Source of the DNA: Chiloscyllium plagiosum
Lineage: Eukaryota
Direction: 5' to 3'
Assembly: GCF_004010195.1 (NCBI RefSeq)
Contig: NC_057749.1
Span: forward strand, 10,813,646 to 10,877,645
DNA length: 64,000 bases
Of the stretch, positions 14,552 to 37,966 are shown piece by piece. How positions within the stretch are numbered: position 1 is the stretch's first letter; every line of letters begins with the position of its first letter. Both the position numbers and the translations under genes were made by a program. A model generated the notes under the pieces. It saw nothing but the letters and a program-made list of their open reading frames with translations. It was not told the DNA's origin and did not search any database.

Positions 14552-14822
14552 CTTTAGGAAGCCTGAAAATAAATTTCTTTTTGAGAACAGCCTGGATTTC
14601 ATTCACATTGGTCTGTTCAATGACATCAGTAACTCCAGTGTTGGTGGATAACACTTCACCATCATTCACCTGCAGCCAGACCCCCGTCCCAGACCCTTCC
14701 AGAAGCGGGTTTTCCACAGTCAGTCTCAAGATGTAATGTCCCACCTCATTAAACTGAACATTGACGATTTCAAACTCAAAGTCGAGCTCCTTGTCTTCAA
14801 TTCTCAACTGGGACCTGTGCAT
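14552..14822 (-). CDS. CCDC33: CCDC33 first coding exon (N-terminal C2-like region)
   Basis: Translates MHRSQLRIEDKELDFEFEIVNVQFNEVGHYILRLTVENPL...KKKFIFRLPK|G, closely like the human CCDC33 N-terminus as I recall it (..[31 protein letters not shown]...SKFIFTLPKG). There is an in-frame TGA upstream of the ATG, a (CT)n-CAG acceptor at 14920-14921 and a donor AAG|GTAAAA (phase 1). Confidence 0.9.
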
Positions 14823-14920
14823 ATTTTAGTCTTTTTTCTTGTTTGCAAAGACGTTTTGCAACTACTTTCCCCACTTCAAACGTCAAAACAGAATGACTCT
14901 TGGATTGATGCAAGTCCTAC

Positions 14921-14956
<36 letters not shown>

Positions 14957-15358: not shown

Positions 15359-15540
15359 CTGTGCCTTGACTGCAGGAGAAATACTGCTTCAAATGGGATG
15401 ATAAACAGGCACTTTGTACTGAAATCCAAAAGCAGCCCTTGATCTCACATCGCTTGTTTTCAGTTTGGAAATGCGATTCACACAATCTGCTCAGTTTGTT
15501 GTCGTGAATCTAGGCAGCAACCACCAGCCAATCAAGCTGC
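15359..15540 (-). promoter_or_regulatory. candidate CCDC33 non-coding first exon / promoter
   Basis: Minus-strand donor CAG|GTAACG at 15359/15358, ~440 bp upstream of the 14919 acceptor. A CCAAT and an RFX half-site-like GTTGCTGCCTAG lie near 15510-15533. Inference only. Confidence 0.35.
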
Positions 15541-17201
15541 TGCACAAAACAAACAAAATAGACTTCAAAGTCAATGGATTATGTGTCTTATAATAACCAC
15601 GGTGATGTGTTATACAAAGACCGGTTCCTTTAGCTGCCAATGTTAATCTTTAAACACACCTTAAAAGTGCACACAGTTAAAAATGCAAGGATCTGGGTTC
15701 TATCTTATAATTTCAAACTTTGCTTTGATTGAATTTACCCAAATGGCAGCTTTATATCTCTTGATTAAAAACTCCATCCAGTCTGGCAAACTCTGGGCCC
15801 ATTCCTTTGCTGACTGTAGAGTCATAGAGATGTACAGCACAGAAATAGACTCTTCAGTCCAACTCGTCCATGTCGATCACATATTCAACATTAATCTAGT
15901 CCCATTTGCCAGCATTTGGCCCATATCCCTCTAAACCCTTCCTCTTCATGTACCCATCCAGATGTCTTTTCAGTGTTGTAACTGTACCAGCCTCCACCAC
16001 TTCCTCTGGTAGCTCCTCCTGTGATTTGATGAAGGAGCAGTGCTCTGAAAGCTAGTACTTCCAAATAATCCTGTTGGACTATAACCAGCTGTTATGTGAT
16101 TTTTAACTTTATATTTATCTAGCTCCTCTAGTGTAATGCAACATCCACACAAAAGCATTTATGGTGACCCCTAAGGAGATAATGAAACAAAGTTTGGTCG
16201 AAGCCCAGTCAAAGATTTAAGGAGCACCTTAAGTAGAGGCAAAAAGGTTTACAAAACTTGGAACTTAGGGTTCAGGCAGCAGAGTGTGGGATGGGGTGAC
16301 CTAAATGCTGAAGACTTCCAAACAGAGCTGAAAGAAGTGCAGATATAGAGTCACACAGCACAGAAACAGTCCAACTCATCCATGCCAAACAAGCTTCCCA
16401 AACTAAACTAGTCCCACTTGCCTGCATCTGGTCAATATCCCTCTAAACCCTCCCTATTCATGCACCCATCTGATAATTCATTCCACACATGAACCACCCT
16501 CTGTATGAAAATGTTGTCCCTCAGGTCTGTTTTCAATCTTTCTCCTCTCCCCTTAAAAATATGCCCCCTTGTTTTGAACTCATTCACCCTAGGGAAAAGA
16601 CCTTTACGATTCACCTTTTCCATTCCCCTCATATTTTATAAACCTCCGTAAGGTCACCCCTCAACTCCTATGTTCCAATGAAACAGTCCCAGCCCATTCA
16701 TCCTTCCTTATAACTCAAACCCTCCAATCCCAGCAACATCCTTGTAAATCTTTTCCGAACAGTCTCCAATTTCATTCCTATAATAGGGCGACCAGAAATG
16801 TACACATTACTCCAAAAGTGACCTCACCGTCATCCTGTATGAGCTCAACATGATGTGCCAACTCCAACACTCAATGGTCTGAGCAATGAAGGCAAGAGTG
16901 CTAAACGCCTTTCTTGTAGGACTGTGGGAGTGGAGGAGTTTACCCATTTAGGGAGGATAACCATGAAGAAGATTTGAGCATTCTTGTAAAATACTACGCT
17001 ATAATACTGTAACATTGCCTTCTGCCAGGACCACCTGGGATATCTTGGATGTGATGTATTGTAACTAAACCTTCTTGTTAGTATTAGTATGTGTTCCTGA
17101 TACCTAGTGGAGAAAGATACACACACAACATCTTAGACAACAGATAGATTCTGGCTTGGTTAATCCAGTTAATGTATTACCTAATAGTTAGTTACATTAC
17201 A

Positions 17202-18128
17202 GATGGAAATGTGTTGCTGGAAAAGCGCAGCAGGTCAGGCAGCATCTAGGGAACAGGAGAATCGACGTTTCGGGCATTAGCCCTTCTTCAGGAATGAGGA
17301 AAGTTGGTCCAGCAGGCTAAGATAAAAGATAGGGAGGAGGGACTTGGGGGAGGGGCGTCGGAAATGTGATAGGTGGAAAGAGGTCAAGGTGAGGGTGATA
17401 GGTCAGACTGGGGTGGGGGAGGAGAGGTCGGGAAGAAGATTGCAGGTTAGGAAGGCGGTGCTGAATTCAAATTCAGCACCGCCTTCCTAACCTGCAATCT
17501 TCTTCCCAACCTCTCCGCCCCCACCCCANNNNNNNNNNNNNNNNNNNNNNNNNNNNNNNNNNNNNNNNNNNNNNNNNNNNNNNNNNNNNNNNNNNNNNNN
17601 NNNNNNNNNNNNNNNNNNNNNNNNNNNNNNNNNNNNNNNNNNNNNNNNNNNNNNNNNNNNNNNNNNNNNNNNNNNNNNNNNNNNNNNNNNNNNNNNNNNN
17701 NNNNNNNNNNNNNNNNNNNNNNNNNNNNNNNNNNNNNNNNNNNNNNNNNNNNNNNNNNNNNNNNNNNNNNNNNNNNNNNNNNNNNNNNNNNTGCTGGTAG
17801 GGGAGGGGAGGGAAATATATCCTTGGTGGTGGGGTCCGTTTGGAGGTGGCGGAAATGGCGGCGGATGATGCGCTGTACATGGAGGTTAGTGGGGTGGTAG
17901 GTGAGGACCAGTGGGGTTGTGTCCTGGTGGCGGTTGGAGGGGCGGGGTTCAAGGGTGGAGGATCGGGAAGTGGAAGAGATGCGGTGGAGGGCATCGTCGA
18001 CCACGTCGGGGGGGAAATTGCGGTCCTTGAAGAAGGAGGCCATCTGGGATGTGCGTTTTTGGAACTGGTCCTTGGTGGTGGGGTCCGTTTGGAGGTCCTT
18101 GGTGGTGGGGTCCGTTTGGAGGTCCTTG
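17202..18128 (-). mobile_element. Penelope-like retroelement fragment with pseudo-LTR, internal fold-back and assembly gap
   Basis: Minus ORF FFKDRNFPPDVVDDAL...PLVLTYHPTNLHVQRIIRRHFRHLQTDPTTKDIFPSPP resembles the post-RT region of fish PLEs. 3' repeat carries a hammerhead motif. TSD GTTACATTACA at 17191-17201 and 18129-18139. Confidence 0.75.
17260..17296 (-). ncRNA. minimal type-I hammerhead ribozyme motif (family A)
   Basis: Minus strand CTGAAGA-A-GGGC-TAAT-GCCC-GAAA-CG-TC: full catalytic core, stem II and palindromic ACGT helix III. Stem I is weak. Confidence 0.6.
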
Positions 18129-18932
18129 GTTACATTACACCCAAGATACATGATTGTCTTTTGTGAGACCATGGGTTCAGCTGAATAAATACGTGTTACT
18201 ACTTTAGTTCCATGCTATTAGCATTGAGAAGAATGGCTAAAGCACTCCTCATTCCTGGGAGTACATGGAGAACTCATAGGACTGGTTAGCTCCTCCCAGT
18301 AAAAGTTATTTACATTTTGATAGGCAGAGTTTATCTCTTGTTGTCAGTTAACCCTTTCAGCTAATGACTGCCTTATACATACACACAGTTTAAGGTGGAG
18401 GCGTTGCTTGGCCAACAAGTGTCAGCAAGCTCAGAGCAAAGATGCTTTCATACTGCTCTAAGACTCTAAGTGAATCACAGCTACCAACAGGGGCCAGTAT
18501 AGTCACAATGGGGCGTATGGCCTCTTTCTGTTCCATAATGACATGGTAATTCAGTGACTTATCAATTCATGGCCATTGGTGGGTGGGTTTATGTGCATGT
18601 ATGTAGGTTTGTGTGTGTGTCTGCAGGTAATAGAGTAAGGATAGAGTGTGGGATGTGTGAGATTAAGTGAATGAGGGTGAACATCTGTGTGTTGATGGAT
18701 GGTATGGGTCTCTGTAAAACAGTAAAGTCACCATAGACTTATCAGACTGTAGGGCTGCTCTCTCTAATGAGAGAGACAACTGATGGTGGTTTGACCTGAG
18801 GGTTACCACGGGAAGAGGTTGAAAAGGAGAGTCCTTCACAGTAACTCAGCCAGTGTGGGAATTGAACCCACACTTTCACTATCACTCTGCCCTGCAAACT
18901 AACTGTCCTGCCAACTGAACTGACTGACTCTG

Positions 18933-19240
18933 CTGTGTGAGGTTGTGGGAGGTGTGGATGTGAGGGATTGTGTGTGCACAGATTTGGGTGTGGGGGGATG
19001 TGAGTGGGGAAGTGTGTGAGGGAGCGTGTGTGTGGGGACTGTGTGTGGGTGGGTTTGAGGGTGTGGTGTGTGTTGGTGTGTAGGGGTGTGTGGGAGAGTG
19101 GCGGGTAAGGATGTGAGGGGTGGGTGTGTGGGGAGAGTTATGAGTTGTGTGGGGGGAGTTATGAGTTGTGTGTGTTATGAGTGGGTGCGTGAGTATGGGG
19201 GGGAGGAGGTTTGTGTGGGGTCTGTGTGTAAGAATATGGA
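18933..19240. repeat. GT-rich low-complexity region
   Basis: Degenerate TG/GGG repeats. Confidence 0.8.
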
Positions 19241-19246
19241 AGGTTG

Positions 19247-21866
19247 TTGAGGAAGGTTTGTCTACTGAGTCAGTATGGGTGGAAGTTAGGAACAGCAAGG
19301 GAACAGCAACCTCATTGGGGGTTTTCTACAGACCACCTAAAAGCAGTAGAGAGATTGAAGAACTCAGGCTGGCAAATTCTGGAAAAATGCAGAAGTAGCA
19401 GGTTTGTTGTTATGGGTGATTTCAACTTTCCCAATATCGACTGGAACCTCCAAAGTGCAGACGGTTTGGATGGTGCCGTTTTTGTCAGGTGTGTTCATGA
19501 GGGTTTCCTTACTCAGTATGTAGACAGACCGACGAGGGGAGAGGCCATTTTGGATTTGGTGCTCGGCAACAAGCCAGGACAGGTGTCAGATCTCGCGGTG
19601 GGAGAGCACTTTGGTGACAGTGACCACAACTGCCTTACATTTAGCATAGCCTTGGAGAGGGAAAGGAGCAGTCACTGAGGGAAGATATTTAATTGGGGAA
19701 AAGCAAATTTTGACGCTATCAGACAGGAGCTGGGAAGTACAGACTGGGAGCAATTGTTCCACAGAAAGGGCACAGCAGACATGTGGAGACTATTTAAGGA
19801 GCAGTTGTTACAAGTGAAGCACAAATTTGTTTCTCTGAGACAGGTAAGAATGTGTAAGATTAAGGAACCTTGGATGACGAGAACAGAGGAACTTCTCGTC
19901 AAAAGGAAGAAGGCAGCTTATGTAAGGTGAGGAAGCAAGGATCTAACACAGCTTTAGAGGATTACAGGTTTGCTAGAAAGGTGCTCAGAAATAGACCGAG
20001 GAGAACCAGGAGGGGGCATGAAAAGGGCTTGGCAAGACAGATTAGGGAGAACCCAAAGGCATTTTACTCAAACGTGAGAAATAAGAGAATGCTCAGGGAG
20101 AAGCTAGGGCCAATCAGGGATAGCGGAGGGAACTTGTGCGTAGAGTCTGAGCAGATAGAGGAAGCCCTAAATGAGGTTTTTGCTTTGGTTTTCATCAAGA
20201 AATGGGAACTTGTTGTAAATGAAAACTTTGAGGAGCTGGGATACAGTCTTGACCAGATCGAGATTGATGAAGTTGATGTGCTGGAAATTTTGGAAAACAT
20301 TAAGATTGATAAGTTCCCCCGGGCCAGACCAGATTTATCCTCGGCTGCTCCGGGAAGCGAGAAAGGAAGTTGCTAAGCCGCTGGCGAGGATATTTACCTC
20401 CTCACTCTCCACGGGAGTCGTACCAGAGGATTAGAAGGAGGCGAATGTTGTTCCACTTTTCAAGAAGGGTAATAGGGAAATCCTGGCAATTACAGACCAG
20501 TCCGTCTTACATCTGTGGTCAGCAAAATTTTGGAAAGAATTCTGAGGGATAGGATTTATGACTATTTGGCAAAGCATAGTGTGATTAAAGGCAGTCAGCA
20601 TGGCTTTGTGAGAGGCAAGTCATGCCTCACAAATTTTATTGAGTTCTTTGAGGAGGTGACGAGACAGGTCGATGAAGGTCGAGCAATGGATGTAGTGTAT
20701 ATGGACTTCAGCAAGGCATTTGATAAGGTTCCCCATGGTAGGTTCATTCATAAAGTCAGGAAGTATGGGATACAGGGAGATTTGGCTATCTGGATTCAGA
20801 ATTGGCTGGCTGACAGAAGGCAGAGAATGGTTGTAGATGGAAAGCCTTCTGCCTGGAGGTCAGTGTTGAGTGGGGTCCCGCAGAGTTCTGTTTTTGGGCA
20901 CCTGCTCTTTGTAGTTTTTGTAAATGCCTTGGATGAGGAGGTTGACGGGTGGGCTAGTAAATTTGTATTTGACAAAGGTTGGAGGTGCTGTTGATAGTAT
21001 AGAGGGTTACTGCAGGCTGCAGCGTGACATAGACAGGATGCAGAGCTGGGCTAAGAAATGGCAGATGGGTTCAAACTGGATAAATGCGAAGTGATGCATT
21101 TTGAAAGGTTGAACTCGAATGCTGAATGTAGGTTTAAAGACAGGATTGTTGGCAGTGTGGAGGAACTGAGGGATCCTGGTGTGCAAGTACATAGATCCCT
21201 CAAAGTTGCCACCAAGTGCATAGGGTTGTTAAGAAAGCAGATGGTGTTTTGGCTTTCATTAACAGGGGGATCAGGTTTAAGAGCCGTGGAGTTTTGCTGC
21301 AGCTCTACAAGTCCCTGGTGAGACCACACTTGGAATATTGTGTCCAGTTCTGGTCGCCCTACTACAGGAAAGATACAGAGGCTTTGGAGAGGATGCAAAG
21401 AAGGTTTACCAGGATGCTGCCTGGACTGGAGAGCTTGACTTATAAAGAAAGATTTAGTAACCTTGGACTTTTCTCTCTGGAGAGAAGGAGGAAGAGAGGA
21501 GACCTGATTGAGGTATATAAAATAATGAGCGGCATAGATAGAATCAATAGCCAGACACTTTTCCCCAGGGCAGGATTGACTGGTACGAGGAGTCATAGTT
21601 CGAAGATATTAGGAGGAAGGTATAAAGGAGACGTCAGAGGTAGGTTCTTTACGCAGAGTGTTGTGAATGCATGGAATGTGTTGCCAGCTGTGGTGGTAGA
21701 AGCAGAGTCAATGGGGACATTTTAGCGACTGCTGGACATGCGCATGAGATAGCAATGAGTTGAGGGGTGCATAGGTTAAGTTACTATATTTCACATTAGG
21801 ATTAAACCTCGGCACAACATCGTGGGCCAAAGGGCCTGTTCTGTGCTGTACTGTTCTATGTTCTAT
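19247..21866 (+). mobile_element. 5'-truncated CR1-clade LINE (HER1-like), decayed ORF2 (AP endonuclease + reverse transcriptase)
   Basis: Frameshifted fragments VVMGDFNFPNIDW, ILDLVL, DSDH, QHGFVRGKSCLTN, YMDFSKAFDKVPH, SGVPQSSV, LYKSLVRPHLEYCVQFWSP, FFTQSVVNAWN; 3' tail of TTCTATG repeats. Confidence 0.93.
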
Positions 21867-22964
21867 GTATGTGAGGTGTGAGCATGGGGGGTTTGTGTGT
21901 GGGGTCTGTGTGTAAGCATATGGAGGATGGGAGGTGTGAGTGTGCGAGAAATGCAATGCAAAACATTAACTGTCTTTTCACCACCAGCCAAAAGGAATCA
22001 GCTATCCACTCTCCTCTCACACAAACATACAGAATAGCAGCCTACTCTACCATTCAATCAGTTTTTTAAAAATATTCCGATATGGGACATGGGTATTGCT
22101 GACCGTGACGATGTTTATCACCGATCACTAATTGTTGAGTCAACCACATAGTTGTGGGTGTGGACTCACATGTAGGTCTGACCTGATAAACCAACATTTC
22201 CTTCTGTCAATGTAATGAGTGAGCCAGGTGGATTTTTATAACAACAATGGTTACCATTAGGCTGGCTTTTTATTTTTGGATTTTATTGAATTCAAATTTC
22301 ACCATCTAAGATCTCAAGATTTGAACCGATATTACCAGAACATTATCCTGAGGGTTGGGATTACTTGACCAGAGACGGCACCATTACCCCATCACCTCTC
22401 TGTAAATAAATAAAACCTGAAAGAACTGCGGATGCTGGAAATCAGAAACAAGAACAGAATTTGCTGGAAAAGCTCAGCAGGAAGGACAGCATCTATAGAG
22501 AGAAATCAAAGTTAATGTTTCAGGTCATGACCCTTCTTAACTCTGCTTTCTCTCCACAGATGCTGCCAGTCCTGCTGAGTTTCTCCAGCGATTTCTGTTT
22601 TTGGATTTGTGCTTTGAAATCCATATTCCCTGGTAACATTTCATTTTGTGTCTAGCAAGAATGAATTATCAAATATCCTTCTGATGAAGGGTCACAGTGG
22701 ACACAAAACATTAACCTGTTTCTCTCTCTATAGATGCTACCAGACCTGCTGAGTTTCTTCAGCATTTTCTGTTTCTGATATAAATTATTGGGGGGTGCGC
22801 AGGGCATTACCCACACAGGATATGAAGCTGAGATAGATGATTCACGTGGGGAATCAATGTTATGGGAATTTGGATATGTGTAGTATCTGCCAATGATCCA
22901 ACTTAATGGTGGAATGGGTTTGGGAGGCCTGTTCCTGTCCCTTTCTCTTGCGGTCTTAAGAAGG

Positions 22965-24040
22965 TTATCTCAGGATCTTGATCTGATGGGCTGAGGACTG
23001 GCAGGTGGAGTTTAATTTAGATAAATGTGAAGTGCCGCATTTTAAAAAGGCAAATCAGGGCAGGACTTATACACTTAATGGGAAGGTCCTGGGGAGTGTT
23101 GCTGAACAAAGAGACCTTTTTTTAAGCAAAAAAAAACACACAGTAACGTTTCTACTTACCTCTTCCCATTACAAGAGCACAGAGACAACAGACTCTCTTC
23201 CAAAAGCGTCTCTTTGGGATACTGAAGTTCCTTGACACTACCTAAGGGACTTAGGGGGCAACCTTTTCATCAGGGGTGGTGGATGTATGGGACAAGCTGC
23301 CACAGGAAGTGGTGGCGACTGGTACAATTACAACATTTCAAAGGGGCAGCACGATGGCTCAGTGGTTCACACCGCTGCCTCACAGCTGCAGGGTCCCAGG
23401 TTTGATTCCTGCCTTGGGCGACTGTCTGTATGGAGTTTGCACATTCTCGCTGTGTCTCTCTGGGTGCTCTGGTTTCCTCCCACAATCCTTGCAGGTTCAC
23501 AGTTCCTTGAAAGTGGAGTCTCATGTAAAGATGATGTCTGGTATGCTTTCCTTTATTAGTCAGTGCATTGCTTATAGGTCATATCATGCTGTACAGGACA
23601 TTGGTTAGGCCACTTTTGCAATTCTGGTCTCCTTCCGATAGGAAGGATGTTGTGAAATTTGAAAGGGTTCAGAAAAGATTTACAAGGATATTGCCAGGGT
23701 TGGAGGGTTTGAGCTATAGGGAGAGACTGAATAGGCTGGGGCTGTTTTCCCTGGAGGGTTAAAGGCTGAAAGGTGGCCTTATAGAGACTTATAAAAACAT
23801 GAAGGGCATGGATAGGGTAAATAACCAACGTCCTTTCCCTAGGGTGGGGGAGTCCAAAACAGGAGGGCAAAAGTTGAAGGTGAAAGGGAAAAGATTTAAA
23901 AGGGACCTAAAAAGCAACTTTTTCAAGCAGAGGGTGGTGTGTGTATGGAATGAGCTGCTGGGGGGAGTGGTGGAGGCTGGTACAATTACAATGTTTAAAA
24001 GGGATTTGGATGGACATATGAATAGGAAGTGTTTAGAGGG
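22965..24040 (+). mobile_element. CR1/HER1 LINE 3' fragment interrupted by a templated insertion (23117-~23490)
   Basis: MEFNLDKCEV...VAEQRDL | VHSSLKV...LYRTLVRP...FFKQRVVCVWNEL are contiguous LINE sequence on either side of the insert. Confidence 0.8.
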
Positions 24041-24499
24041 AGGCGAAAATGAGGACTGCAGGTGCTGGAGAATAGAGTCAAGATTAGAGTGGTGCTGGAA
24101 AAGCACAGCAGGTCAAGCAGCATCCAAGGAGCAGGAAAATCGACATTTTGGGAAAAAAGCCCTTCATCAGGAATGTGGAGGGAGACAGAGGCTGACAGAT
24201 AAATAGGGGAACTATCCATTCCCACTGACCTATCACAATGATTTCTCACCTACATCCATCTATGGCCATTCCACTTTCCTGTGCCCCAGCCCCAGCCCAA
24301 TTTATCTCTCAGCTCTCCTCCCCCACGCATCTCTATGACTCTAAAGCTTGCTTTTCCTTAACTTCGTTATTTCTTGCGAATTGTCCTGATGAGAACAAGA
24401 CAAAACAAACGTGTCCTTTTTTTCCCCCCTAACAAAAACGTAGCTGAAGATTTTCAAAGAAAATACAGTAGCTGAAAAACTACTTTAAAGTCTTCCCCT

Positions 24500-24821
24500 T
24501 TCACAAACATAACGCACAAGATACCAGCGCCACGTCCGCGGAAACGTTTGTCTGTGTGTGTGTGTTCTGGAATGTTTCAGCCCGACCACTGAAACAGCAA
24601 TGCACCTTGATCCACCGCCACAGCCAGTGTACCTGGGCAATGGGGCACATCCTCTTAAAGCGCCCCTCCTCCTGGAATGGGTTATGTAACGCGGAGGGTG
24701 GTGGCCGTGGTTGGACTTTACCTTTAAGCCTCAGCCGCTCGGGAGGGTAGGGACTTCAGTATCCCAAAGAGACGCTTTTGGAAGAGAGTCTGTTGTCTCT
24801 GTGCTCTTGTAATGGGAAGAG
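24500..24821 (+). promoter_or_regulatory. candidate STRA6 promoter and non-coding first exon
   Basis: Locally CpG-rich unique sequence ending in a consensus donor GAG|GTAAGT (24821/24822) that points toward STRA6. D-box GTTATGTAAC at 24681-24690. Confidence 0.5.
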
Positions 24822-25729
24822 GTAAGTAGAAACGTTACTCTGCACTATTTTTTTTAAGCACAAAAATACACAGTTGGCAGCTTGTATCATATCATTCAAC
24901 TTTGTGTTAGTATGGAAGCTAATCTGGCCGTAATTAAGTTGTTTACAGAAAGTGGATAAACTTGTATTTTCTTCATTCAGTTCCAACCCCCACCCCAACA
25001 CACAAAAACAAAAACCTGTTTATTTTCCCCCTGTTTCTCACTGGCTTTCAATAACTAACTAAATATCCTCGGGTTTCACAGTGTGGAAAAACAAGAGGTT
25101 TTGTTCAATCCAAACTTTAAAGAGCCCCTTGTAGGAGTTGAAAACAGAACCAGAAAAAAATATGTTGGGAGTCTGAATTGAAATGGGTCGAAGATATCCT
25201 TTGGTTTAATTTTCTGGTTCCCCCACCCAAAAAAAATCCCTGCCAGATTGACCCACTCCTTTGTAATCCTGCGTTTAAAATCCCGGACTGAGTTTTGCTG
25301 AACAGGCTGGGAGGTTAGTCGGTGTGTGTTGTGATGGGTGTAGTGGGGGGGGAGGGGGGAATGATAATGAAGCATTATCCGGGAAATGTGGTGCAAAACT
25401 ATTTGTGTTCTGACTTCAGAGCATCCAAGTGATGGAGAAACTCACAGGTCTGGCAGCAATCTGTGGAGAGAGAAAGCAGAGTTAATGTTTAGAGTCCTCA
25501 TGGCCCCCTCTACTCTGAAACGTTAACTTTCTCCACAGGTGCTGCTGGACCTGCTGAGTCTCTCTAGAGGTCCAGCATTCTCGGTAGAGTCATAGAGCTG
25601 TCCAGCACGGAAACAGACCCTTCGGTCCATGCCAACCAGATATACTAAATTAATCTAGTCCCATTTGCCAGCATTTGGCCCATATCCCTCTTAAACCCTT
25701 CCTATTCGTTTACTCATCAAGATGCCTTT

Positions 25730-26040
25730 AGATTAGAGATTCCCTACAGTGTGGAAACAGGCCGTTCGGCCCAACAAGTCCACACCGACCCTCCGAAGAG
25801 TAACCCACCCAGTCCCATTTCCCTCTGAATGATGCACCTAACACTATGGGCAATTTAGCATGGCCAGTTCACCTGACCTGCATATCTTTGGATTGTGGGA
25901 GGAAACCGGAGCACTCAGAGGAAACCCACGGAGACACGGGGAGAATGTGCAAACTCCATACAGCCCAAGGCTGGAATCGAACCTGGGACCCTGCTGCTGT
26001 GGGGCAGTGGTGCGAATCACTGAGCCATCGTGCTGCCCCT
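25730..26040 (-). mobile_element. HE1-type SINE nested in a CR1 3' fragment (~25586-26215)
   Basis: Reverse-strand SINE flanked by contiguous CR1 3' sequence. Confidence 0.8.
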
Positions 26041-27089
26041 TTGAAATGTTGTAATTGTACCAGCCTCCACCACTTCCTGTGGCAGCTTGTCCCATACATG
26101 CACCACCCCTAAGTGCCTTTTAATTCCCAGGTTCGATTCCACTCACTGTAAACCTACATCCTCTGGTTTTGAACTCCTCTACTCTGTGGAAAAGACCTTG
26201 ACTATTTACCCTCTTACACTCTAGTTCTTTGCTTGATTCACATCCATTCCTTTCTGAAGGCTTCTAGTTTCTGGCTTACAATACAATCTTTCACTTCTAA
26301 TGTAAGAACCTACTCAGGCCATTCAGCCAGTCAAAGCTGTGCCAGTATTTTTGAGGCAGAGGCAGATCGATTACCAATAGAGTCAAAGATTAGACTTTCG
26401 ATTTGGTTGTCACATGTACTCATGTACAGGAGTACAGTGAAAAGTGTATAATCTCGCCACACATGGTGCCATCTTAGGTACCTAGGCACAAAAGAAGTGT
26501 AGGTATAAAGTAGTAAGAAACAAAAAAGTCAAAACGTTAAGCATTACATCATAGAATAGGAGCAAAATAAAGAAAAAGGTAATAGTTTAGATTAAAGTCT
26601 TTCATAGTTTAAACCAAGAAAGTGAAGGAATAAGGATTATTGGAGGGGTGGGGTTGTAAGTGGGTTTGTGGAGCTGAGGCTAAATCAGGTAAGCAATGAT
26701 CTAATTGAATGGCAGAGCAGGGTTGAGATGCTAATGCCTCACTCCTGCTCCAATTCGTATGTTCCTCCTCAATTCCATTCTCCCATGTGTGTTTTAACTA
26801 GTTTCTGCTTAAATGGGCCTGTTAGTTGCTTTGCATATTCCTTGTCATCTTTTTTTTTGTCATCTGAGTAGCATGTAGGATTAGCAACTACCTTATATTC
26901 ACGGCCCCGAGCTTTTACTTTCTTTCAGGTTGAGATATTTAATGGTATTGATATTCCACTGGTAAAACCTGCATAAGCTCAGGCATAATCTCATTCTGCA
27001 GAGATGTTAGAAAGTACTTCAACGTGCAGAGAGTAGTGAAGGTTTGGAACTCCCTCAAATGCCTGCTGATGGTGTTTCAATTGTTAAAT

Positions 27090-28802: not shown

Positions 28803-31025
28803 TCTCTCAATCAACATATGAGTCCAGAAAATCATGCTGATTTGGGAGATTTCTAGGTGTGAATTGGTTACCACAATTCCTACCTTACAACAGGAACCAC
28901 ATTTCAACGTGTATTGACTGAAGTTTCTGAACAAGCTGCTATAGAAATGCAAGTAACTTTGCTTTAGGTAAAACAAAATCTGTGTTACATCGATAGTTTA
29001 AATTATGTTCATTGGTGAGACTTGACTCCTGATTGGCCTCTTAATGATTACAGAGTTAAATACCTTTCAAAAAACACTTGCATGTGAGGGTTACATGACT
29101 TGAAATGAAAGATCAGGGAAAAGCAGCATTTATTGCCCATTCCTAATTGTCACGTGGGCAGTTATGATCAATCTTAAATATGTTCTCCAAATAATTCCAT
29201 TAAAGAACTGTTCGATTACAAACAGGAATATCCAACACTGAGACATTCTCGAAATTCTTACTGAACCATTAAAGACAGCTTTGTTTTAAGTGATGTGGAG
29301 GTGCCAGTGTTGGACTGGTGTGGACATGTTTAAAAAATCACACAACCCCAGATTATTGTCCAACAGATTTATTTGGAAGCACTAGCTTTCGGAGTACTCC
29401 GAACACTTGTACTTCCAAATAAACCTGTTGGGTAATTAGGGATGCGTGATAAATGCTGGTCTGGCCAAAGTCTGTGAATGAAAATCATTTGATATTGAAC
29501 AGAGAAGTAGAGGTTGGCTATTCAGCCCTTTATCCAGTTCTGCAGATGGAAGACCCATGGCTGATGGCTTGTGTGACAAATTCCACATTGCCATTTACTT
29601 CCCCCGATAACCTTTAATTCCTTTCCAAAACAGAACCCCTCTACCTCCACTTGAGAAATATTCAATGAGCCCCACCACTACCACCACCTTTTGAGCTAGA
29701 GGGTTCCAAAGTCGCTCAGACCAGGCAATTCTCTTCCTCTCTGACCAAAGGGATGATGCCTAATTTTAAAGCAGTGCCACCTGTTTCTATTCTCACCTAC
29801 GAAAGGAAATATCCCTTCCTCGTCTACTTTGTGAAGGTCATAGCATCTCTGCAGTGTGGAAGCAGGCCATTTGGCTCATTGAATCCACACTGACCCTCAG
29901 AGCATCTCATCTAGACCCAACCCTCTACCCCTGGATTTCCTATGGCCTATCCACCTAGCCTGCATGTCCCAGGAGACTATGGGCAATTTGGCATGGCCAG
30001 TCCTCTCTAAGCCACACATCTTTGGACTATAGAAGCAAACCGGAACACCTGGAGGAAACCCACACAGACACAGGGAGAATGTGCAAGTTCCACATAGGCA
30101 GTGACCCGAGGCTGGAATTGAACTCTGGTCCCTGGCATTGTGAGGCAGCAGCGCTAACCACTAAGCTACTTCTGATATACTCCAATCAAGTCACTCCTCA
30201 TTCTCCTCAACTCCAAGGGAAACAAGCCCAGTCTGCATCTGCATAACAAACCAACTCATTCCAGGTATCAGTCTTTTAAACCTCACTGAACTACCAATGA
30301 TGCACTTGTAACAAAGAGACCACAAATACACACATTGCGTTTGTCAGATCCTTGATGTAAATGGAGTACTTGAGAGACAATGAATCACTTTGGAGTTCTG
30401 TGACTTATTTCAGCAGGTAAGATTCCATAAATAATGACAAATGTGTGTAGACCAAGATTTATAGCACCGGTTGCATTGTCGGCAGGTTCTCAGGCGACAG
30501 AGAAAGTTAGCCCAGCTGCTGACATTTAACACTTTAAAGCTTGCTCTGAATTGAGGCACCTCCCCCCTCCGTCTCTCACTTGGTGGATACATCTCCTTCT
30601 AAACTGGGTGTTGGTTGGTGGCTTCCTAATGACCGTCCAATTTGAGATTCTGCTTACTGTCCCTCGATTGGGTGGCAAGTCCACCCTCCTGGCCAATTTG
30701 TAGAATGTTTCTTCTTAGTGACTGTGCGCCACCAAGTGTAGGGTTGTGACCCCTGTTTGACCCCAGCAGCTGAACACATTGGAATGTCATCAAGTGAGGG
30801 GGAGTTAGCCTTGAACTGGCAACCTTCTAACCTCGAGGAGAGAGTGGTAACACTGGGCTGATCAGATAAGGAGCAGCATAAATCAGATGCCCGTAGGAAG
30901 GAGACATCAGCAGCCATAGTGACCTAGAGGATTTAAGATTTGGAGATGCCGGTGTTGGACTGGGGTGTACAAAGTTAAAAATCACACAACACCAGGTTAT
31001 AGTCCAACAGGTTTATTTGGAAGCA

Positions 31026-31060
31026 CACTAGCTTTCGGAGCGTCGCTCCTTCATCAGGTG
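31026..31060 (-). ncRNA. minimal type-I hammerhead ribozyme motif (family B)
   Basis: Minus strand CAC-CTGATGA-A-GGAGC-GAC-GCTCC-GAAA-GC-TA-GTG: stem I CAC/GTG, 5-bp stem II, palindromic AGCT helix III. Confidence 0.7.
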
Positions 31061-31740
31061 ATAGTGGAGGGCTCGATCGTAACACAGAATTTATAGCAAA
31101 AATTTACAGTGTGATGTAACTGAANNNNNNNNNNNNNNNNNNNNNNNNNNNNNNNNNNNNNNNNNNNNNNNNNNNNNNNNNNNNNNNNNNNNNNNNNNNN
31201 NNNNNNNNNNNNNNNNNNNNNNNNNNNNNNNNNNNNNNNNNNNNNNNNNNNNNNNNNNNNNNNNNNNNNNNNNNNNNNNNNNNNNNNNNNNNNNNNNNNN
31301 NNNNNNNNNNNNNNNNNNNNNNNNNNNNNNNNNNNNNNNNNNNNNNNNNNNNNNNNNNNNNNNNNNNNNNNNNNNNNNNNNNNNNNNNNNNNNNNNNNNN
31401 NNNNNNNNNNNNNNNNNNNNNNNNNNNNNNNNNNNNNNNNNNNNNNNNNNNNNNNNNNNNNNNNNNNNNNNNNNNNNNNNNNNNNNNNNNNNNNNNNNNN
31501 NNNNNNNNNNNNNNNNNNNNNNNNNNNNNNNNNNNNNNNNNNNNNNNNNNNNNNNNNNNNNNNNNNNNNNNNNNNNNNNNNNNNNNNNNNNNNNNNNNNN
31601 NNNNNNNNNNNNNNNNNNNNNNNNNNNNNNNNNNNNNNNNNNNNNNNNNNNNNNNNNNNNNNNNNNNNNNNNNNNNNNNNNNNNNNNNNNNNNNNNNNNN
31701 NNNNNNNNNNNNNNNNNNNNNNNNNNTCACGAAGAACATT

Positions 31741-32068: not shown

Positions 32069-32199
32069 CGAACATGGCGTAATTTTTCAGCTCCTGGGAA
32101 AGGCTTAACAGACAATCAATTTTTCAATGTATAATTTCAGTTACATCACACTGTAAATTTTTGCTATAAATTCTGTGTTAGGATCGAGCCCTCCACTAT

Positions 32200-32234
32200 C
32201 ACCTGATGAAGGAGCATCGCTCCGAAAGCTAGTG
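32200..32234 (+). ncRNA. minimal type-I hammerhead ribozyme motif (family B)
   Basis: CAC-CTGATGA-A-GGAGC-ATC-GCTCC-GAAA-GC-TA-GTG; inverted partner of 31026-31060. Confidence 0.7.
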
Positions 32235-35200
32235 TGCTTCCAATTAAACCTGTTGGACTATAACCTGGTGTCATGTGATTTTTAACTTAGAGGATTTAAG
32301 CCAGTGTTGTGCAGTACATTAGCCGCATGTGGCTAATGGGTAAACCAGATGTGTCTGACTGACCAATGAGTAGAAAATGAGTAATAGATGGCTGTTGAGC
32401 ATCTGATATTTATGTTCTTATATTCACAGTCCATGAACTTTAACCAGTTTGTGAGCATGTTGATAAAATGGAAAACAATGTGGGTCACTGTTGGTTGATG
32501 TGAATCCCTTGCTTACTGAATCAGTAGACGTAATTGACACAATGTCCAGGTGCAATGTAAGTTCAACCTGGATTTTGAAGCACCCAAAATGCTTTGTACT
32601 GAAGTTTCATGGGGTTAGAGTTGAATCCATGCCTGTGGCCATTACATATTTACACTAATTATGTTCCCTGGGATTTAAAAGCTTAAGGGGCAATTTGATC
32701 AGCATTTCTAAATTATGAAGGGGAACGGTATCAGGTACGCTGCAAGAAACCATTCCTTCTGGTTGGAACATTCATAATTGGAGAATATCTAAAAATTAGC
32801 CCCAGACTTGGATGGATTGGAACTAGGAACACATTCTCCGTGAGGTGGGAGCTGGGAACTCTCTTCTGGAAATACCAATTATTGCCGGATAAGTTCACTT
32901 TAAAACTGCGATCTGATAAAGTTTTTGATAACTAAATATGGTAAGCGACAGGAGGCAAAGTTGAGTACGTAGTGTTATGAACCAAACCAAACCCCGTCAC
33001 AAAATTTTAAAAAGGTAGCCTAGGCTCTAACCTTTTCTTATTTTAAAAGTAGATGTGAAGTGCCGTGTTCCTGATGCAATGCATCAAACTTCTCCGTGTT
33101 AATCAAAATACAATTTATTTCCTGATTGGGCTGATGAAGGGCTTATGCCTGAAACACCAACTCTCCTGCTCCTCAGATGCTGCCTGACTTGCTGTGCTTT
33201 TCCAGCGCCACACTTTTTTACCTCAGCAATTTATTTAAGCTTTACAGTTTAAAATACAAACAAAACAATTTAGGATAACTTAGCTATTTAAAAAATGTAA
33301 TAATAGATGCAGTGCCTATTACTAATTAACTGTTCCAATACAGTAACACCCCATAAACACAGCCCTTGATAAAAAGGCAAATTCAGACACAGATTCTTAC
33401 ATGCAGTTCTTCAATCCAGGAGGGAAAAAAAATCATTGAGCGGCACGGTGGCACAGTGGTTAGCACTGCTGCCTCACAGCGCCTGAGACCCGGGTTCAAT
33501 TCCCGACTCAGGNNNNNNNNNNNNNNNNNNNNNNNNNNNNNNNNNNNNNNNNNNNNNNNNNNNNNNNNNNNNNNNNNNNNNGCGGGTCGGTGTGGACTTG
33601 TTGGGCCGAAGGGCCTGTTTCCACACTGTAATGTAATCTAAAATTCAGTGGAAGTAGCAGCCAGAAGTTATTCACTGAAGCTTCCAACTCTGAGATCCCA
33701 AAGGCCTCTGCTTAGAAAAGGCTGACTACACCAAGGCTGCTTCCATCATTCCAACTTTCAAAAACATACCCAAGGCCTCTCCGAATTGTTTACTTTCTTA
33801 GACACAACTCCGTACTTCTGCCTTACAACTTCTCTTTCTAAAAAAAAAAGGGCAAAATAACCTCTTAAGGTGATAGGAATGTCACATGGGAGTGAGGTCC
33901 CAGAATGGCCTCATGGAATGGCGGCATGAGAAGTCAACTCCAGTCACTAGGTTGTATTGCAAAACACTGCTTTGGAACAGGGTTCTCGTAACTGCAGGGG
34001 GGGGGTCATTAGCTGAAATTTCAGGGTCCCAAACACCAGTGCGTTTCTAAGTTTTTTTTTAATAAGAGCTGCTCCATATCAAAAATGCTCCCCCCCTCCC
34101 CCCAGCGCACCCTTTCATTGGTTCCCACTCCCATCATGTGACTTATCTTCTCCTGAGTTCCCGCTGAGTGGTCGCGACCATTTTAAAGCTTCCAATGGGG
34201 TCATGGTGAATGTGGGAGCAATGTTTTGGGGAGCAGGGCTCTGGAAACTGCAAACTCTGGTGAGATGCTACATGAACCGGTGATCCCCAAATTCAGTTTT
34301 TGGCCAGCGCTGAACTAGGGAGCTGTGGCAACTACTCCATTCTCCAAATTATTTTCGCAGCATATCTTCTCTCTTTCTAATTTTTGGCAAAGGGGTCAAA
34401 GGATTCCCCGGGCTGATTACCAGTCTGGTGAACTGTATTGTAGACATTTTATTTATCGTTGATTCCTGGGTTGGAAGTTGGATGTGGAGCTTCTAGCCCA
34501 GGAGTAGGGACGTAGAGAAAGAAGATCTTGTAACTCAAAATTGTAAGGAGAAATAAGTTGAGATGAGGACACATTTTAAAAAAAAACAGAATGTGAACTC
34601 TTGTGGTGCATGGAACTAAATCATAACAAGAGTCAATGCGTTGTAACGCATCCAAAACAGTTGATTCGGGGGAAAAAGAATTGAACAACTGAACTGAAGT
34701 GTGGGGACTGTTCAGTGGGTTTATGACCTTGCCTGCAGTGCAAACTAGTCCAGGTTCTGCATGATTAGTCCATTAGTTACAGCTGACACGGCAGAACAGC
34801 AAACATTTGACTGTGACCCTTTGCTAATTGTTAGGGTTATGCTTTAGAGAGAGAGGAAAATACACTCCGACTTCTTTGATCATCAGAGATGGTAGTAATG
34901 AAAACTTCATGGGTGACACAATCTGTGTTTTAACAATTTTCCCAAGAGTACTTGTTATTTGCATTTGAAAAGGGACCATCTAACCTGTGTCTGTGGAGAC
35001 GATACTGACTGACCCATCTCTCTCTCCCCACAGGGCAAGTAATTGAGTTTATCCCTCAGTTTGCCCTCCTTTCAGTGAGGGTGTGTAATTCAACTCTTAC
35101 ACAAATATTTACACAAGGTTCTGGAATGTCTTCTTCTAACTCTCAACCTTGTGCCATTTATCTCCGGTGACAAGATATTTATTGTTTCAGAGTCCTTCAG

Positions 35201-37763
35201 GAAACAGAATCTTGTGTAAAAAGTGCTCCTGCTTGTCTTCAAAGCCTTTTGTTTATGCAGCACCTTTGTTGGCCCCCAAGTTGTGCCAAAACATTTTAAA
35301 GTCATCTTCGAGACGTGACAGCTATGGGTTAATCTGCTTTTGATGATGTTGAGTTTTCAAGATAAAATAGACATCCAAAGCTATCCTCCCAGTACCCATG
35401 TCCAATACTCTCTACTGGAGTTTAATTCAGGTTCCATCATGAATCCTTTTGGGACCATTTCACCCTCATCCCTCCATACTGCATTGGAATGGCAGCTGGG
35501 GTTTCTGTGCTCAAGTCTCTTGGGTAGCTGGGTAAGTACATGAGGGAGAAATAAGTCGGAGGATGAGAGAGACTGGAAGGTGTCTCATGTGGAGGGCAAC
35601 TGTTGGAATTGGTCAGTTGAGTTGAATAGCTTGTGTTGTAGCTGTTATTTAGGAAGGTGTGTAAATTTGTTGATCTTTAATTCCTCATAGTTAAATCATA
35701 GGAACATTGGACCAGGATAAAGCCATTTGGCCCACTGAGCCCATTCTGTCATAAATCACATCATGGTTGATCTACATTGACACCATTTACTTGCACTATC
35801 TCCATCTCTCAAGATCTCTTTGAAAATCTATTAATCTCTGTCGTAAATATACTCAATGTCTGAGCCTCCACGTCTCTATGGGCTGGAGTATTCACTACAT
35901 TCTGAGTGAAGAGATCCTCCCCTCCCCCACCACCTCTGCCTTATTCCCAGATGATGTCCTCTGGTTCTAGGTACCCCAGCCAATAGAAGCATCCTTCCTG
36001 CATTAACCCAGTGGAACCCAGTAAATAATTTCATCTGAAGACTACAAAATAATACTCGTAGAAGCATCTCTTTCCCCTTGTGAACAGCCAATTTCATGTT
36101 CTACCAAAAGTCAGGATGGGAAGTGATGATCTAATGATATCATCACTGGACTGTTAAGCCAGAGACCCAGGTCATGTTCTGGGGACCAGGCTTTGAATCC
36201 TGCTACCGCAGATGGTGGAATTTGAATTCAATTTTGTTAAAAAATGGAATAGAGAATCTAATGATTAATCCAATCCAGAAAAACTCAACGGATTCACTAA
36301 TGTCCTTTATGAATGGAAGCTTCCATCCTTACCTGTTTCGTCTACATGTGACTTCAGACCCACAGTAATGTGGTTGACTCTTAACTGCCCTCTGGGCAAT
36401 TAGGGATGGGCAATAAATATTATCTAGCCAAAGACACCCACATCCCATGAATGAATTGAAAGAAGCGGTAATTCTGAATGCGATGTCCCATTGTCTTTTT
36501 GTTTTGAAAAAGAATAATCCTTGATCTCACCTTGTGTTACAGTCATTCCAGATCACAGACAACTGGAAATTTCCAGCTCTCTCCAGGCATTTTCCTATTT
36601 ATTCAGAATTTAAAAAAACTTCCTCGTTTTGTATTCTTCTTCTCGTACTGACACCGATAGCTGAATTAATGGGCAAGTTAGCAACCTGGAGCTATGTCAC
36701 CAACTCTGCACTTGCATCATGACATCCCCTGCACATCACCCAAGTACTGTATAATGTTAATGTTAAGTACCAACAGTAACAAACAAAGTTGGTTTCATAC
36801 AAGGTCTTCCATGATCTTGGGGTATCCCGTAGTGCTGCACAGCCAATGTGAAGCTTTGTCACTTACAAAAAAGGAAGTAACATGTCTGGAAAATTATGCA
36901 CAGCATGCTCCCGAACATGGATGGTTCTGCTGATCAAACATGAAGATCATCTTACGCAATATGTTGAGGCAGCCTTCAACTGGCTGCATCTGCCCATGAC
37001 TAGATGTGAAAGGTGATTGATCGCTAAGAATTCTTCCTTTTTCTTCCCTTGGTGTGAGTGGCTTGTGTTTCCTTCTCCATTTATTATAATGACATTTAAT
37101 CTCCTGCTCATCTAATTAAATACCTCAAAACTTTGATCGACCACTTCCTCCATTAAACAGAGAGTGAATCTGGCTCTAAATATGGCAGTCAGTGACTCAG
37201 AGTCATTTTGCCAGATGTCACAAACATTACAAATACAATTGAGCTAGTATATTTCAGCGTTCTGGTTTTATTGTCATGAAGTTAATTCTGCATTTTAGTG
37301 ATCATTGTAATTTTGGCGTAACATATGATTACTGGACTTGGAAGCCATTCTCTAAAGTATCTCCTTACTGTAAAATCTTTTGAATCTAATTGCTTTAAAT
37401 GGAACAAACCCTCCTTGTTATATTCACAAGTCAGGTCATGTTGAGTGTATTTTAGCATACTGTGTGTCTATATGAAACCATTGATCCTGCAATAGATAGG
37501 TTTGGCAATAAAGTGGACCGGCTATTTAACTGTGTGTGTCCCCAGTGTGAAGTTGGACTTGGAGGTGTTAAGCATAACTTGTAAGAGAAGGAGAGAGAGA
37601 GAGAGAGAAAACGAGAGAAAACCATTTGTCAAGGGGAGCTTTTGTACTTGACAGCTTTGGTCATTAATCCAGATCAGTCGTGCAAGGCACCACAGGACAA
37701 CAGACTAAGGATCTGAACAACTTGTGCATTGGCTTGTTGACCAAGGGAGATACAGTGCAAAGA

Positions 37764-37867
37764 ATGGATTTCAGGAATGATTCTTTGGACGTTGACGAGC
37801 CCGATTTCCTGGAGTACTCAGACTGGTACATTGACGATCGTTTGGATCCCACCACCCCTCCTGCTGA
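37764..37867 (+). CDS. STRA6: STRA6 coding exon 1
   Basis: MDFRNDSLDVDEPDFLEYSDWYIDDRLDPTTPPA(D); the Y..WYID motif matches human YSYGSWYIDEP. Donor GA|GTATGT. Possible acceptors at 37654 or 37672. Confidence 0.88.
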
Positions 37868-37966
37868 GTATGTTTTTCATTTTGACTCTGTTCTTAATTT
37901 CAGTTTATTTTTCCTTTAACTGTGACAAGTACTTATCACTATTTATTTGTTTGTTTTGTTCTGTAG

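What the first reader, a model, noticed from the sequence alone, without database searches (positions are those of the whole stretch)
23142..24839. Exact 87-bp inverted duplicate of the putative STRA6 first exon/splice donor now faces CCDC33
Seen: 23142-23228 is a 100% identical reverse complement of 24753-24839, including GGGAAGAG|GTAAGTAG. The adjacent co-copied SINE/LINE piece has diverged by roughly 10% plus indels. The two copies flank the CpG-rich candidate promoter symmetrically. Inference: the unequal divergence suggests gene conversion, selection or a separate later event. Antisense transcription from the promoter could use the minus-strand donor at 23160 and splice to the CCDC33 acceptor at 14919, giving both genes the same 5' leader from one bidirectional promoter. 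The pair could also mediate inversion of the promoter.
Basis: partly seen in the sequence, partly recalled or inferred. Interest (0 to 1): 0.7.

Follow-up and report, generated by a model that had tools for sequence, protein, structure and literature searches.

The report
DNA-repair scar copying STRA6 splice donor
Between two head-to-head genes of a bamboo shark, a DNA-repair accident pasted a patchwork of nearby sequence into an old repeat, including a backwards copy of a likely splice signal of the vitamin A receptor gene; nothing yet shows that the copy is used.

Summary
The 87-bp exact inverted pair is real (23142-23228 = reverse complement of 24753-24839) and is the longest exact repeat in the window. 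The window is whitespotted bamboo shark DNA between CCDC33 (-) and STRA6 (+). The left copy is one piece of a 372-bp patchwork (23117-23488) dropped into an old LINE whose flanks stay collinear. In order: a direct copy of 24849-24876, a fold-back at a small hairpin into the 87 bp, 10 nt matching the host's own right flank, and an inverted copy of a LINE/SINE junction 2.6 kb away. This is the signature of a multi-template repair insertion (MMBIR/FoSTeS or Pol-theta type). An antisense transcript would have to cross over 1.1 kb of repeat and an AATAAA before it reaches the copied donor. No reads were laid on the locus, so use of either donor, gene conversion, inversion and assembly collapse are all untested. 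Most likely a neutral scar.

The parts
14553..14919 (-). First coding exon of CCDC33 (ATG at 14822), acceptor at 14919 behind a (CT)n tract
15359..15620 (-). Candidate own first exon/promoter of CCDC33: donor CAG|GTAACG at 15359, CCAAT at 15528, X-box half-site at 15516. Weak: 1 of 22 minus-strand donors with 8 or more of 11 U1 matches in 14900-26500
   Evidence: motifs recalled; inference
22960..23116 (+). Left half of the host LINE (CR1-like; label recalled)
   Evidence: 23038-23112 aligns with 46837-46764 of another copy
23117..23144 (+). Piece A: direct copy of 24849-24876; 24 identities, 2 mismatches, one 2-nt internal gap
23142..23228 (-). Piece B: exact inverted copy of 24753-24839; copied donor with last exon base at 23160
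23226..23235 (+). 10-nt match to the host's right flank 23501-23510, entered through a shared AGT: read as an aborted re-annealing to the far break end
   Evidence: 0.4% of random 20-mers of the window share a 10-mer with these flanks
23236..23271 (+). 7 unassigned bases, then LINE 3'-end-like sequence that is not preserved in this form at the right-hand LINE
23272..23488 (-). Piece C: inverted copy of the LINE/SINE junction at 25890-26110; 14 mismatches in 210, two indels
   Evidence: a 24-nt junction word occurs only at these two places in the window
23489..24045 (+). Right half of the host LINE, collinear with the left half; about 5 nt lost at the site; carries AATAAA on the minus strand at 23557
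   Evidence: 23490-23615 aligns with 46754-46607
24300..24752 (.). Weakly CpG-rich unique stretch, candidate STRA6 promoter/first exon; also holds possible acceptors (AG ending 24623, 24734)
   Evidence: promoter role is inference
24753..24839 (+). Original of the 87 bp: candidate end of a non-coding STRA6 exon (to 24821), with an ATG at 24812, donor GAG|GTAAGTAG and 18 intron bases
   Evidence: exon status not tested
24836..24878 (+). Imperfect hairpin (about -4.3 kcal/mol as DNA) at which the copy turns from the + to the - strand; template of piece A
25584..26212 (-). Second LINE, inverted relative to the host LINE (70-78% alike), with a whole SINE (25728-26038) inside; template of piece C
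37655..37868 (+). First coding exon of STRA6 (ATG at 37764) with CAG acceptors at 37655, 37673 and 37678

Best explanation
The 87-bp copy is a passenger in a single multi-template repair insertion, and is most likely neutral. Inferred steps: (1) a germline break opened an old LINE at 23116/23489, with loss of about 5 nt; (2) the free 3' end primed on DNA 1.7 kb downstream, just inside the intron behind the candidate STRA6 exon, and copied 28 nt forwards; (3) at a small imperfect hairpin it turned onto the other strand through AGT microhomology and copied 87 nt backwards across the donor and exon end; (4) it annealed briefly through AGT to the far break end, added 7 nt and let go; (5) it jumped to a related inverted LINE 2.6 kb away and copied about 220-245 nt across a LINE/SINE junction; (6) it rejoined the host LINE. 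Shown: the pieces, their templates, order, orientation and junction bases. Inferred: one event, the enzymes (MMBIR/FoSTeS or Pol-theta end joining), and neutrality. The copy stayed identical most simply because the original is a constrained, CpG-poor exon end and 87 nt is short; a later gene conversion between the arms is possible but not required. The copied donor faces CCDC33 by geometry only.
For: Host LINE halves are contiguous in another copy (46837-46764, then 46754-46607). All larger pieces have templates within 3 kb, in both orientations. AGT overlap at the A/B turn, inside a hairpin, and at the B/filler junction; the 10-nt filler match lies 12 nt inside the right flank, chance about 0.004. 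The LINE/SINE junction word occurs at 2 places in the window, and the right one has the whole SINE. Piece A, continuous with B, has 2 mismatches and a gap. Of 8 differences in the first 129 nt of piece C, 5 arose on the copy and 3 on the template; with 3-5 copy-side changes per 129 nt, zero changes in 87 nt has p 0.13-0.03. Longest-run test p 0.08-0.10. Three-template germline insertions with microhomology are common in humans: 33 of 103 and 26 of 99 filtered calls in two people were 'complex' (PMC8421209, section 10 part 1 read).
Against: Zero mismatches in 87 nt remains low under plain neutral drift of both copies: Fisher p 0.013 (0 of 87 vs 14 of 210), Poisson p 0.003. The outer junctions show only 2-4 shared bases (CCTT occurs at both), and 23236-23271 has no clean template in the present sequence. 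The copied stretch happens to carry one of only 4 donors with 9 of 11 U1 matches on its strand in 14900-26500. No reads, RNA or second species were examined at the left copy, so neutrality is not shown.
Confidence: 0.7

Rival explanations
1. Same origin, but the arms have since been homogenised by gene conversion or recombination, with or without occasional inversion of the 1.5 kb between them. An inversion would turn the CpG-rich stretch towards CCDC33 and give it a ready-made exon end and donor.
For: Identity is higher than in the co-copied pieces; the arms are only 1,524 nt apart; conversion of near-perfect to perfect inverted repeats by local template switching is documented (PMC7954356, passages), though over tens to hundreds of nt.
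Against: The host LINE halves are collinear, so the assembled haplotype is not inverted. 87 nt is below the 200-300 nt usually cited for efficient homologous recombination in vertebrates (recalled). The identity is within reach of chance in three of the models tried.
Confidence: 0.1
2. One reading: antisense transcription from the CpG-rich stretch uses the copied donor at 23160 and splices to CCDC33 at 14919, so one promoter feeds both genes.
For: Strong donor (9 of 11) on the right strand, 8.2 kb above a strong acceptor (pyrimidine fraction 0.95). Identity would follow from selection on both arms. U1 sites are known to protect transcripts from nearby poly(A) sites within about 1 kb (PMC4085477, section 5 read), and the AATAAA lies about 400 nt from the donor.
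Against: The exon would be over 1.1 kb of antisense LINE/SINE, with 22 ATGs between 24750 and 23160, an AATAAA at 23557 and an earlier donor at 24250. The shared ATG would open a 16-17 codon out-of-frame ORF. CCDC33 starts at the same Met in sharks and rays far older than this insertion, so it already had a leader; a candidate lies 440 nt above the acceptor. In Xenopus ccdc33 is an Rfx2 target of multiciliated cells (PMC12796433, passages), unlike retinoic-acid-induced STRA6 (recalled). Selection on a donor would not need all 87 nt.
Confidence: 0.06
3. RNA duplex switch: a transcript that starts outside the pair (STRA6 from an upstream start, or CCDC33 from beyond 24.9 kb) holds both arms, which pair over 87 nt and hide the donor, causing skipping or editing.
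For: Computed duplex -167 kcal/mol against -12 for an 11-nt U1-like helix; possible acceptors at 24623 and 24734 could make the right copy an internal exon. Selection for pairing would keep the whole 87 nt. The same STRA6 protein has 2 RefSeq accessions in C. plagiosum and 3 in C. punctatum, which may reflect alternative untranslated exons.
Against: No transcript that spans both arms is known from these calls; any perfect 87-nt pair has such an energy; the acceptors are mediocre (pyrimidine fraction 0.65); the CpG-rich stretch between the arms is the simplest start site.
Confidence: 0.04
4. The perfect identity is an assembly effect: a few real differences were merged in a short-read graph.
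For: The window has three sized N gaps, as short-read scaffolds do. One published assembly of this species used Platanus with k 29 and bubble crushing at 0.2 (PMC7677710, supplement passage). Which assembly the window comes from was not established.
Against: A bubble needs k-1 shared bases on both sides, so with k of 29 or more only the central third could be merged and at least 56 nt must truly match (inference). Two full-depth paralogues are normally not crushed (recalled). The junction bases are mechanistically coherent and pieces A and C have diverged, so the insertion itself is not an artefact.
Confidence: 0.05
5. Two events: piece C came first, and pieces A+B were added later at its left edge, so B is simply younger.
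For: 0 of 87 against 14 of 210; 23236-23271 is untidy.
Against: Piece A is continuous with B and has diverged, though it lies in mutable A/T runs. The filler after B matches the host's right flank 12 nt from the break, which fits an open break there when B was copied.
Confidence: 0.05

Closest known systems
Complex templated insertions from microhomology-mediated template switching (MMB-TI, class 'complex'; PMC8421209, passages and section 10 part 1 read)
   Same: Insertion made of three or more nearby templates in both orientations, 3-nt microhomology and interrupted microhomology at switches, germline, involving a quasi-palindrome.
   Different: Templates lie 1.5-2.9 kb away (that study searched within 100 bp); the event is old and fixed in a reference; it is in a shark; it captured a strong splice donor.
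FoSTeS/MMBIR junction insertions in human rearrangements (PMC5120786, abstract and passages read)
   Same: Templated insertions of hundreds of bases at junctions (376 and 815 bp are listed), breakpoints often in repeats, inverted pieces.
   Different: There the insertions accompany large copy-number changes; here the flanks are restored with about 5 nt lost.
Short-range template switching, four-point model (PMC7954356, passages read)
   Same: Strand turn at a hairpin-prone site that leaves a perfect inverted repeat; events enriched in introns and regulatory elements.
   Different: That model has one switch and one return within tens to hundreds of nt; here there are at least four switches over 3 kb.
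U1-poly(A) axis of promoter directionality (PMC4085477, section 5 read)
   Same: A 5' splice site placed on the upstream antisense strand is what this model predicts should lengthen antisense RNA.
   Different: No antisense RNA is shown here; the donor lies over 1.1 kb from the CpG-rich stretch and downstream of the first AATAAA.
Invertible promoters flanked by inverted repeats (bacterial fim and hin switches; recalled)
   Same: A candidate promoter between two perfect inverted arms and two divergent genes.
   Different: No site-specific recombinase is known for this; the promoter is off-centre; no inverted allele was seen or tested.

Membership tests
Complex templated insertion (MMBIR/FoSTeS type) | Inserted DNA is copied from nearby templates | tested here: met
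   Pieces A, B, filler and C map to 24849-24876, 24753-24839, 23501-23510 and 25890-26110; 7 nt unassigned, 29 nt LINE-like without an exact template
Complex templated insertion (MMBIR/FoSTeS type) | Several template switches, with change of strand | tested here: met
   Order direct, inverted, direct, inverted; not a nested inverted duplication
Complex templated insertion (MMBIR/FoSTeS type) | Microhomology at junctions | tested here: inconclusive
   Clear 3-nt AGT at 2 junctions (A/B, B/filler); 2-4 nt at the two outer junctions; the filler/C junction is not resolvable
Complex templated insertion (MMBIR/FoSTeS type) | Made by break-induced replication rather than Pol-theta end joining | not testable with these tools
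   PMC8421209 itself says Pol-theta may account for a subset (passage)
Retrotransposed (processed) copy | Spliced RNA, poly(A) tail, target-site duplication | tested here: not met
   The copy includes intron bases; the T run is part of template A; about 5 nt are lost and at most CCTT is shared by both junctions
Staggered-break inversion with duplicated breakpoints | The segment between the duplicated pieces is inverted against its flank | tested here: not met
   The host LINE reads on in the same direction on both sides of the insertion
Bidirectional promoter of a head-to-head gene pair | Two divergent start sites within about 1 kb (definition recalled) | not tested
   No RNA was laid on the locus; the CpG-rich stretch is 9.4 kb from the CCDC33 coding exon and 12.9 kb from the STRA6 coding exon
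Gene conversion between inverted arms | Arms more alike within a species than between species | not tested
   No second genome of the locus was examined
Known structured RNA family | Rfam match at gathering score, or a fold better than shuffles | tested here: not met
   2 matches, E 0.5-0.57, far below gathering scores; fold z = -0.61

The most novel reading that the evidence does not exclude
A repair accident gave the STRA6 promoter a second, mirror-image exon end and splice donor, and the shark put it to use: either CCDC33 gained a leader from the STRA6 promoter, or the 1.5 kb between the arms flips so that one promoter feeds STRA6 in one orientation and CCDC33 in the other, with recombination between the arms keeping them identical. 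That would be an invertible promoter in a vertebrate, and a natural test of the idea that gaining one U1 site turns antisense promoter RNA into mRNA.
Probability: 0.07. Interest if true: 0.8.

Novelty: new member of a known kind. Interest (0 to 1): 0.25.

Why it matters
As it stands this is a clear, well-preserved record of iterative template switching in a shark germline, including an aborted attempt to rejoin the far break end; it is a teaching-quality example rather than a new mechanism. It would matter more if the copied donor is used: it would show in one locus how break repair can create a first exon for a neighbouring gene, couple the retinol receptor STRA6 to the cilia gene CCDC33, and make the U1-gain model of new transcript origin directly testable. 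Two unchecked notes of this scan describe similar backwards copies of splice donors in other shark genes, so a genome-wide count could show whether donors are captured more often than chance.

Tried and rejected
No whole genome is held for this window, so genome-wide copy number of the 87 bp is unknown. Run search for 24180-25400: 20 of 24 rows hold some words; 8 rows in 2 studies of one organism hold 0.65-0.82 (one may be the source of the window); this concerns the right-hand region only. No RNA holder listed. No reads were laid on the locus, so assembly, splicing and cross-species questions stay open. A global MAFFT alignment across the insertion failed and was replaced by local alignments. 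The LINE label could not be confirmed by Pfam (0 relevant hits for 3 fragments) or by protein search (0 of 23 candidates); 'CR1-like' and 'SINE' are recalled labels resting on repeat copies within the window. Rfam and folding gave nothing. The bacterial promoter scan is irrelevant to a shark. An apparent frameshift in the first STRA6 coding exon was my misreading; the frame is open. The STRA6 rows of the upstream-ORF test were one base off and were redone. Shark STRA6 and CCDC33 proteins all start in the coding exons named here, so they do not locate the upstream exons. Rejected: retrocopy, staggered-break inversion, simple nested inverted duplication. The polarity count used the first 129 of the 217 nt of piece C (8 of its 14 mismatches). 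Not found in print in these searches: STRA6+CCDC33+promoter (2 unrelated papers), STRA6+shark (22 papers, 15 listed, none on this locus by title and abstract start), shared first exon/inverted duplication/bidirectional promoter/head-to-head (2 unrelated); searches gave nothing specific. Most subscription papers are outside the library, and bioRxiv supplements were not visible.
Full report
Observation. Bases 23142-23228 are the exact reverse complement of 24753-24839; the match cannot be extended at either end. It is the longest exact repeat in the 64-kb window, ahead of an 82-nt hairpin and a 68-nt match between SINE copies. It holds the donor GAG|GTAAGTAG, with the last exon base at 24821 on + and 23160 on -. 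The neighbouring duplicated piece, 23272-23488 against 25890-26110, differs at 14 of 210 aligned bases plus indels of 7 and 11 nt. The two arms do not flank the CpG-rich stretch symmetrically: 24300-24752 has 19 CpG in 453 nt and touches the right arm, while 23490-24299 has 4 in 810 nt. The stretch is a weak island (GC 0.49, observed/expected 0.66).

Setting. The minus-strand exon at 14553-14822 is the start of CCDC33. Two further exons match a Chiloscyllium plagiosum protein at 149 of 149 and 59 of 59 residues, against 97% and 92% for C. punctatum, so the window is whitespotted bamboo shark or a very close form. STRA6 lies on +: 6 of 14 fragments tried hit Pfam RBP_receptor, and a C. punctatum STRA6 maps in 12 segments from 37764 to 61860. 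Shark proteins of both genes start in these exons, each behind an untranslated stretch and an acceptor, so upstream non-coding exons are likely. The donor at 24821 is 1 of 4 plus-strand sites with 9 of 11 U1 matches between 22000 and 37760 and the only one next to the CpG-rich stretch. That makes it a fair candidate for a STRA6 first exon, but this is inference.

What the left copy is. It lies inside an old LINE. The flanks 23038-23112 and 23490-23615 align with consecutive parts of another copy (46837-46764, then 46754-46607); two comparator copies put the loss at the site at about 5 nt. 'CR1-like' is a recalled label; Pfam and a protein search did not confirm it. The inserted 372 bp (23117-23488) is a patchwork. 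Piece A (23117-23144) is a direct copy of 24849-24876, the intron just behind the donor, with 2 mismatches and a 2-nt gap. At AGT it turns onto the other strand and becomes piece B, the 87 bp; the turn lies in an imperfect hairpin (24836-24878, -4.3 kcal/mol) whose arms read CACAGT and CAGAGT. Piece B ends in AGT, and 23226-23235 matches 23501-23510, 12 nt inside the right flank; 0.4% of random 20-mers of the window share a 10-mer with these flanks. Seven bases are unassigned, 29 are LINE-like without an exact template, and piece C is an inverted copy of the junction between a second LINE and a SINE at 25890-26110. A 24-nt junction word occurs at these 2 places only, allowing 4 mismatches, and the right-hand place has the whole SINE, so the right side is the template throughout. 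The order (B then C on both sides) is not that of a nested inverted duplication, and the collinear host LINE rules out a fixed inversion.

Mechanism. Shown: pieces, templates, strands, junction bases. Inferred: a break in the LINE, a 3' end that primed on nearby DNA, folded back at a hairpin, tried the far break end, jumped to a related inverted LINE (70-78% alike to the host) and rejoined. This matches the 'complex' class of templated insertions, which made up 33 of 103 and 26 of 99 filtered germline calls in two people and included a three-template example with a change of direction (PMC8421209, section 10 part 1; passages). Junction insertions of 376 and 815 bp are listed in PMC5120786 (abstract and passages). 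Whether break-induced replication or Pol-theta did it cannot be told from sequence. A retrocopy is excluded: the copy holds intron bases and has no tail or clear target-site duplication.

Is the perfect identity special? Only mildly. Zero of 87 against 14 of 210 gives Fisher p 0.013; 1 of 91 against 16 of 237 gives 0.049; a mismatch-free run of 87 or more somewhere in the patchwork has p 0.08-0.10 (with 14-17 mismatches placed at random in 297-328 nt). If both copies drift, the Poisson chance of zero is 0.003. In the first 129 of the 217 nt of piece C, 5 of 8 differences arose on the copy and 3 on the template, by 10 outgroup matches in the window; several sit at CpG-type sites. If the original exon end is constrained and only the copy drifts, at 3-5 changes per 129 nt, the chance is 0.13-0.03. 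So constraint plus chance is enough, conversion is possible, and the range of p values is the honest result. Piece A, copied in one run with B, has diverged, which argues against B being a later event, though A lies in mutable A/T runs. Assembly collapse is not excluded: the window has sized gaps, and one published assembly of the species used Platanus with k 29 and bubble crushing (PMC7677710, supplement passage; main-text passages). Which assembly this window is from was not established. By graph logic such merging could hide differences only in the central third.

Shared leader. An antisense RNA from the CpG-rich stretch would run through more than 1.1 kb of LINE and SINE, past a donor at 24250 (8 of 11), an AATAAA at 23557 and most of 22 ATGs before reaching 23160. 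Only the last 69 exon bases would be shared with STRA6. In favour: the copied donor is strong, the CCDC33 acceptor is strong (pyrimidine fraction 0.95), and U1 can shield poly(A) sites within about 1 kb (PMC4085477, section 5). The ATG at 24812 would give out-of-frame ORFs of 16-17 codons on CCDC33 and 23 or 17 on STRA6, and an in-frame extension only through a third acceptor at 37678. CCDC33 begins at the same Met across sharks and rays, so it had a leader before this insertion. A candidate lies 440 nt above the acceptor (donor at 15359, CCAAT, an X-box half-site), but it is 1 of 22 comparable minus-strand donors and the motifs are weak. In Xenopus ccdc33 is a direct Rfx2 target in multiciliated cells (PMC12796433, passages). 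No RNA evidence was obtained for or against.

Other functional readings. If a transcript starts outside the pair, the arms would form an 87-bp duplex (-167 kcal/mol) over the donor, and possible acceptors at 24623 and 24734 could make the right copy an internal exon; no such transcript is known. Recombination between the arms would invert the candidate promoter towards CCDC33; the arms are short for that (recalled) and no inverted allele was tested. The 87 nt are not a known RNA family and fold no better than shuffles.

Known and new. It works like, and on the features testable here belongs to, the complex templated insertions of MMBIR/FoSTeS type; the local strand turn resembles short-range template switching (PMC7954356, passages). 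I found no paper on this locus in the searches (listings only). Earlier notes of this scan had nothing on this place or its relatives; two unchecked notes describe backwards donor copies in other shark genes, which I did not test.

Verdict. The feature is a well-resolved repair scar, probably neutral (0.7). Conversion or inversion 0.10, shared leader 0.06, assembly effect 0.05, two events 0.05, duplex switch 0.04. No reads were laid on the locus, so exon use, identity in raw data and the state in other species remain open. Interest 0.25.

Noticed in passing
window 10838-11023: Perfect 82-nt inverted pair with a 22-nt spacer in a CCDC33 intron, made of the head of a repeat that also occurs at 17201-17297; a 10-nt flank word (CTGAGTCCAT-type) repeats at 10787 and 11023, which looks like another fold-back insertion or an inverted repeat end.
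   Followed up: no
window 30763 (-) and 40022 (-): Two perfect DR5 retinoic-acid-type elements (motif recalled) in the 5' part of STRA6; 0.33 expected from half-site density. A near match lies at 32482 and a DR2 at 38369. The 30763 site is near a strong donor at 30416, a possible alternative first exon.
   Followed up: partly
window 15359-15620 (-): Unique stretch 440 nt above the CCDC33 acceptor with donor, CCAAT and X-box half-site; candidate real CCDC33 first exon.
   Followed up: partly
window 26111-26142: The right-hand LINE is altered just beyond piece C: a stretch is missing and a 14-nt word resembling the nearby SINE (25973-25986) stands there, perhaps a second small templated repair.
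   Followed up: no
window 30972-31124 and 32136-32288: 96% identical 153-nt inverted pair on either side of the 602-N gap and a young SINE; may be an assembly trouble spot.
   Followed up: no
window 37668-37763 (+): The frame upstream of the STRA6 start Met is open for 32 codons; splicing 24821 to the acceptor at 37678 would put the ATG at 24812 in frame and extend the protein. No listed shark protein has this extension.
   Followed up: partly
window 22449-22603: 67-nt inverted pair, 82% complementary, 21-nt spacer, a short hairpin-type repeat about 500 nt left of the insertion.
   Followed up: no
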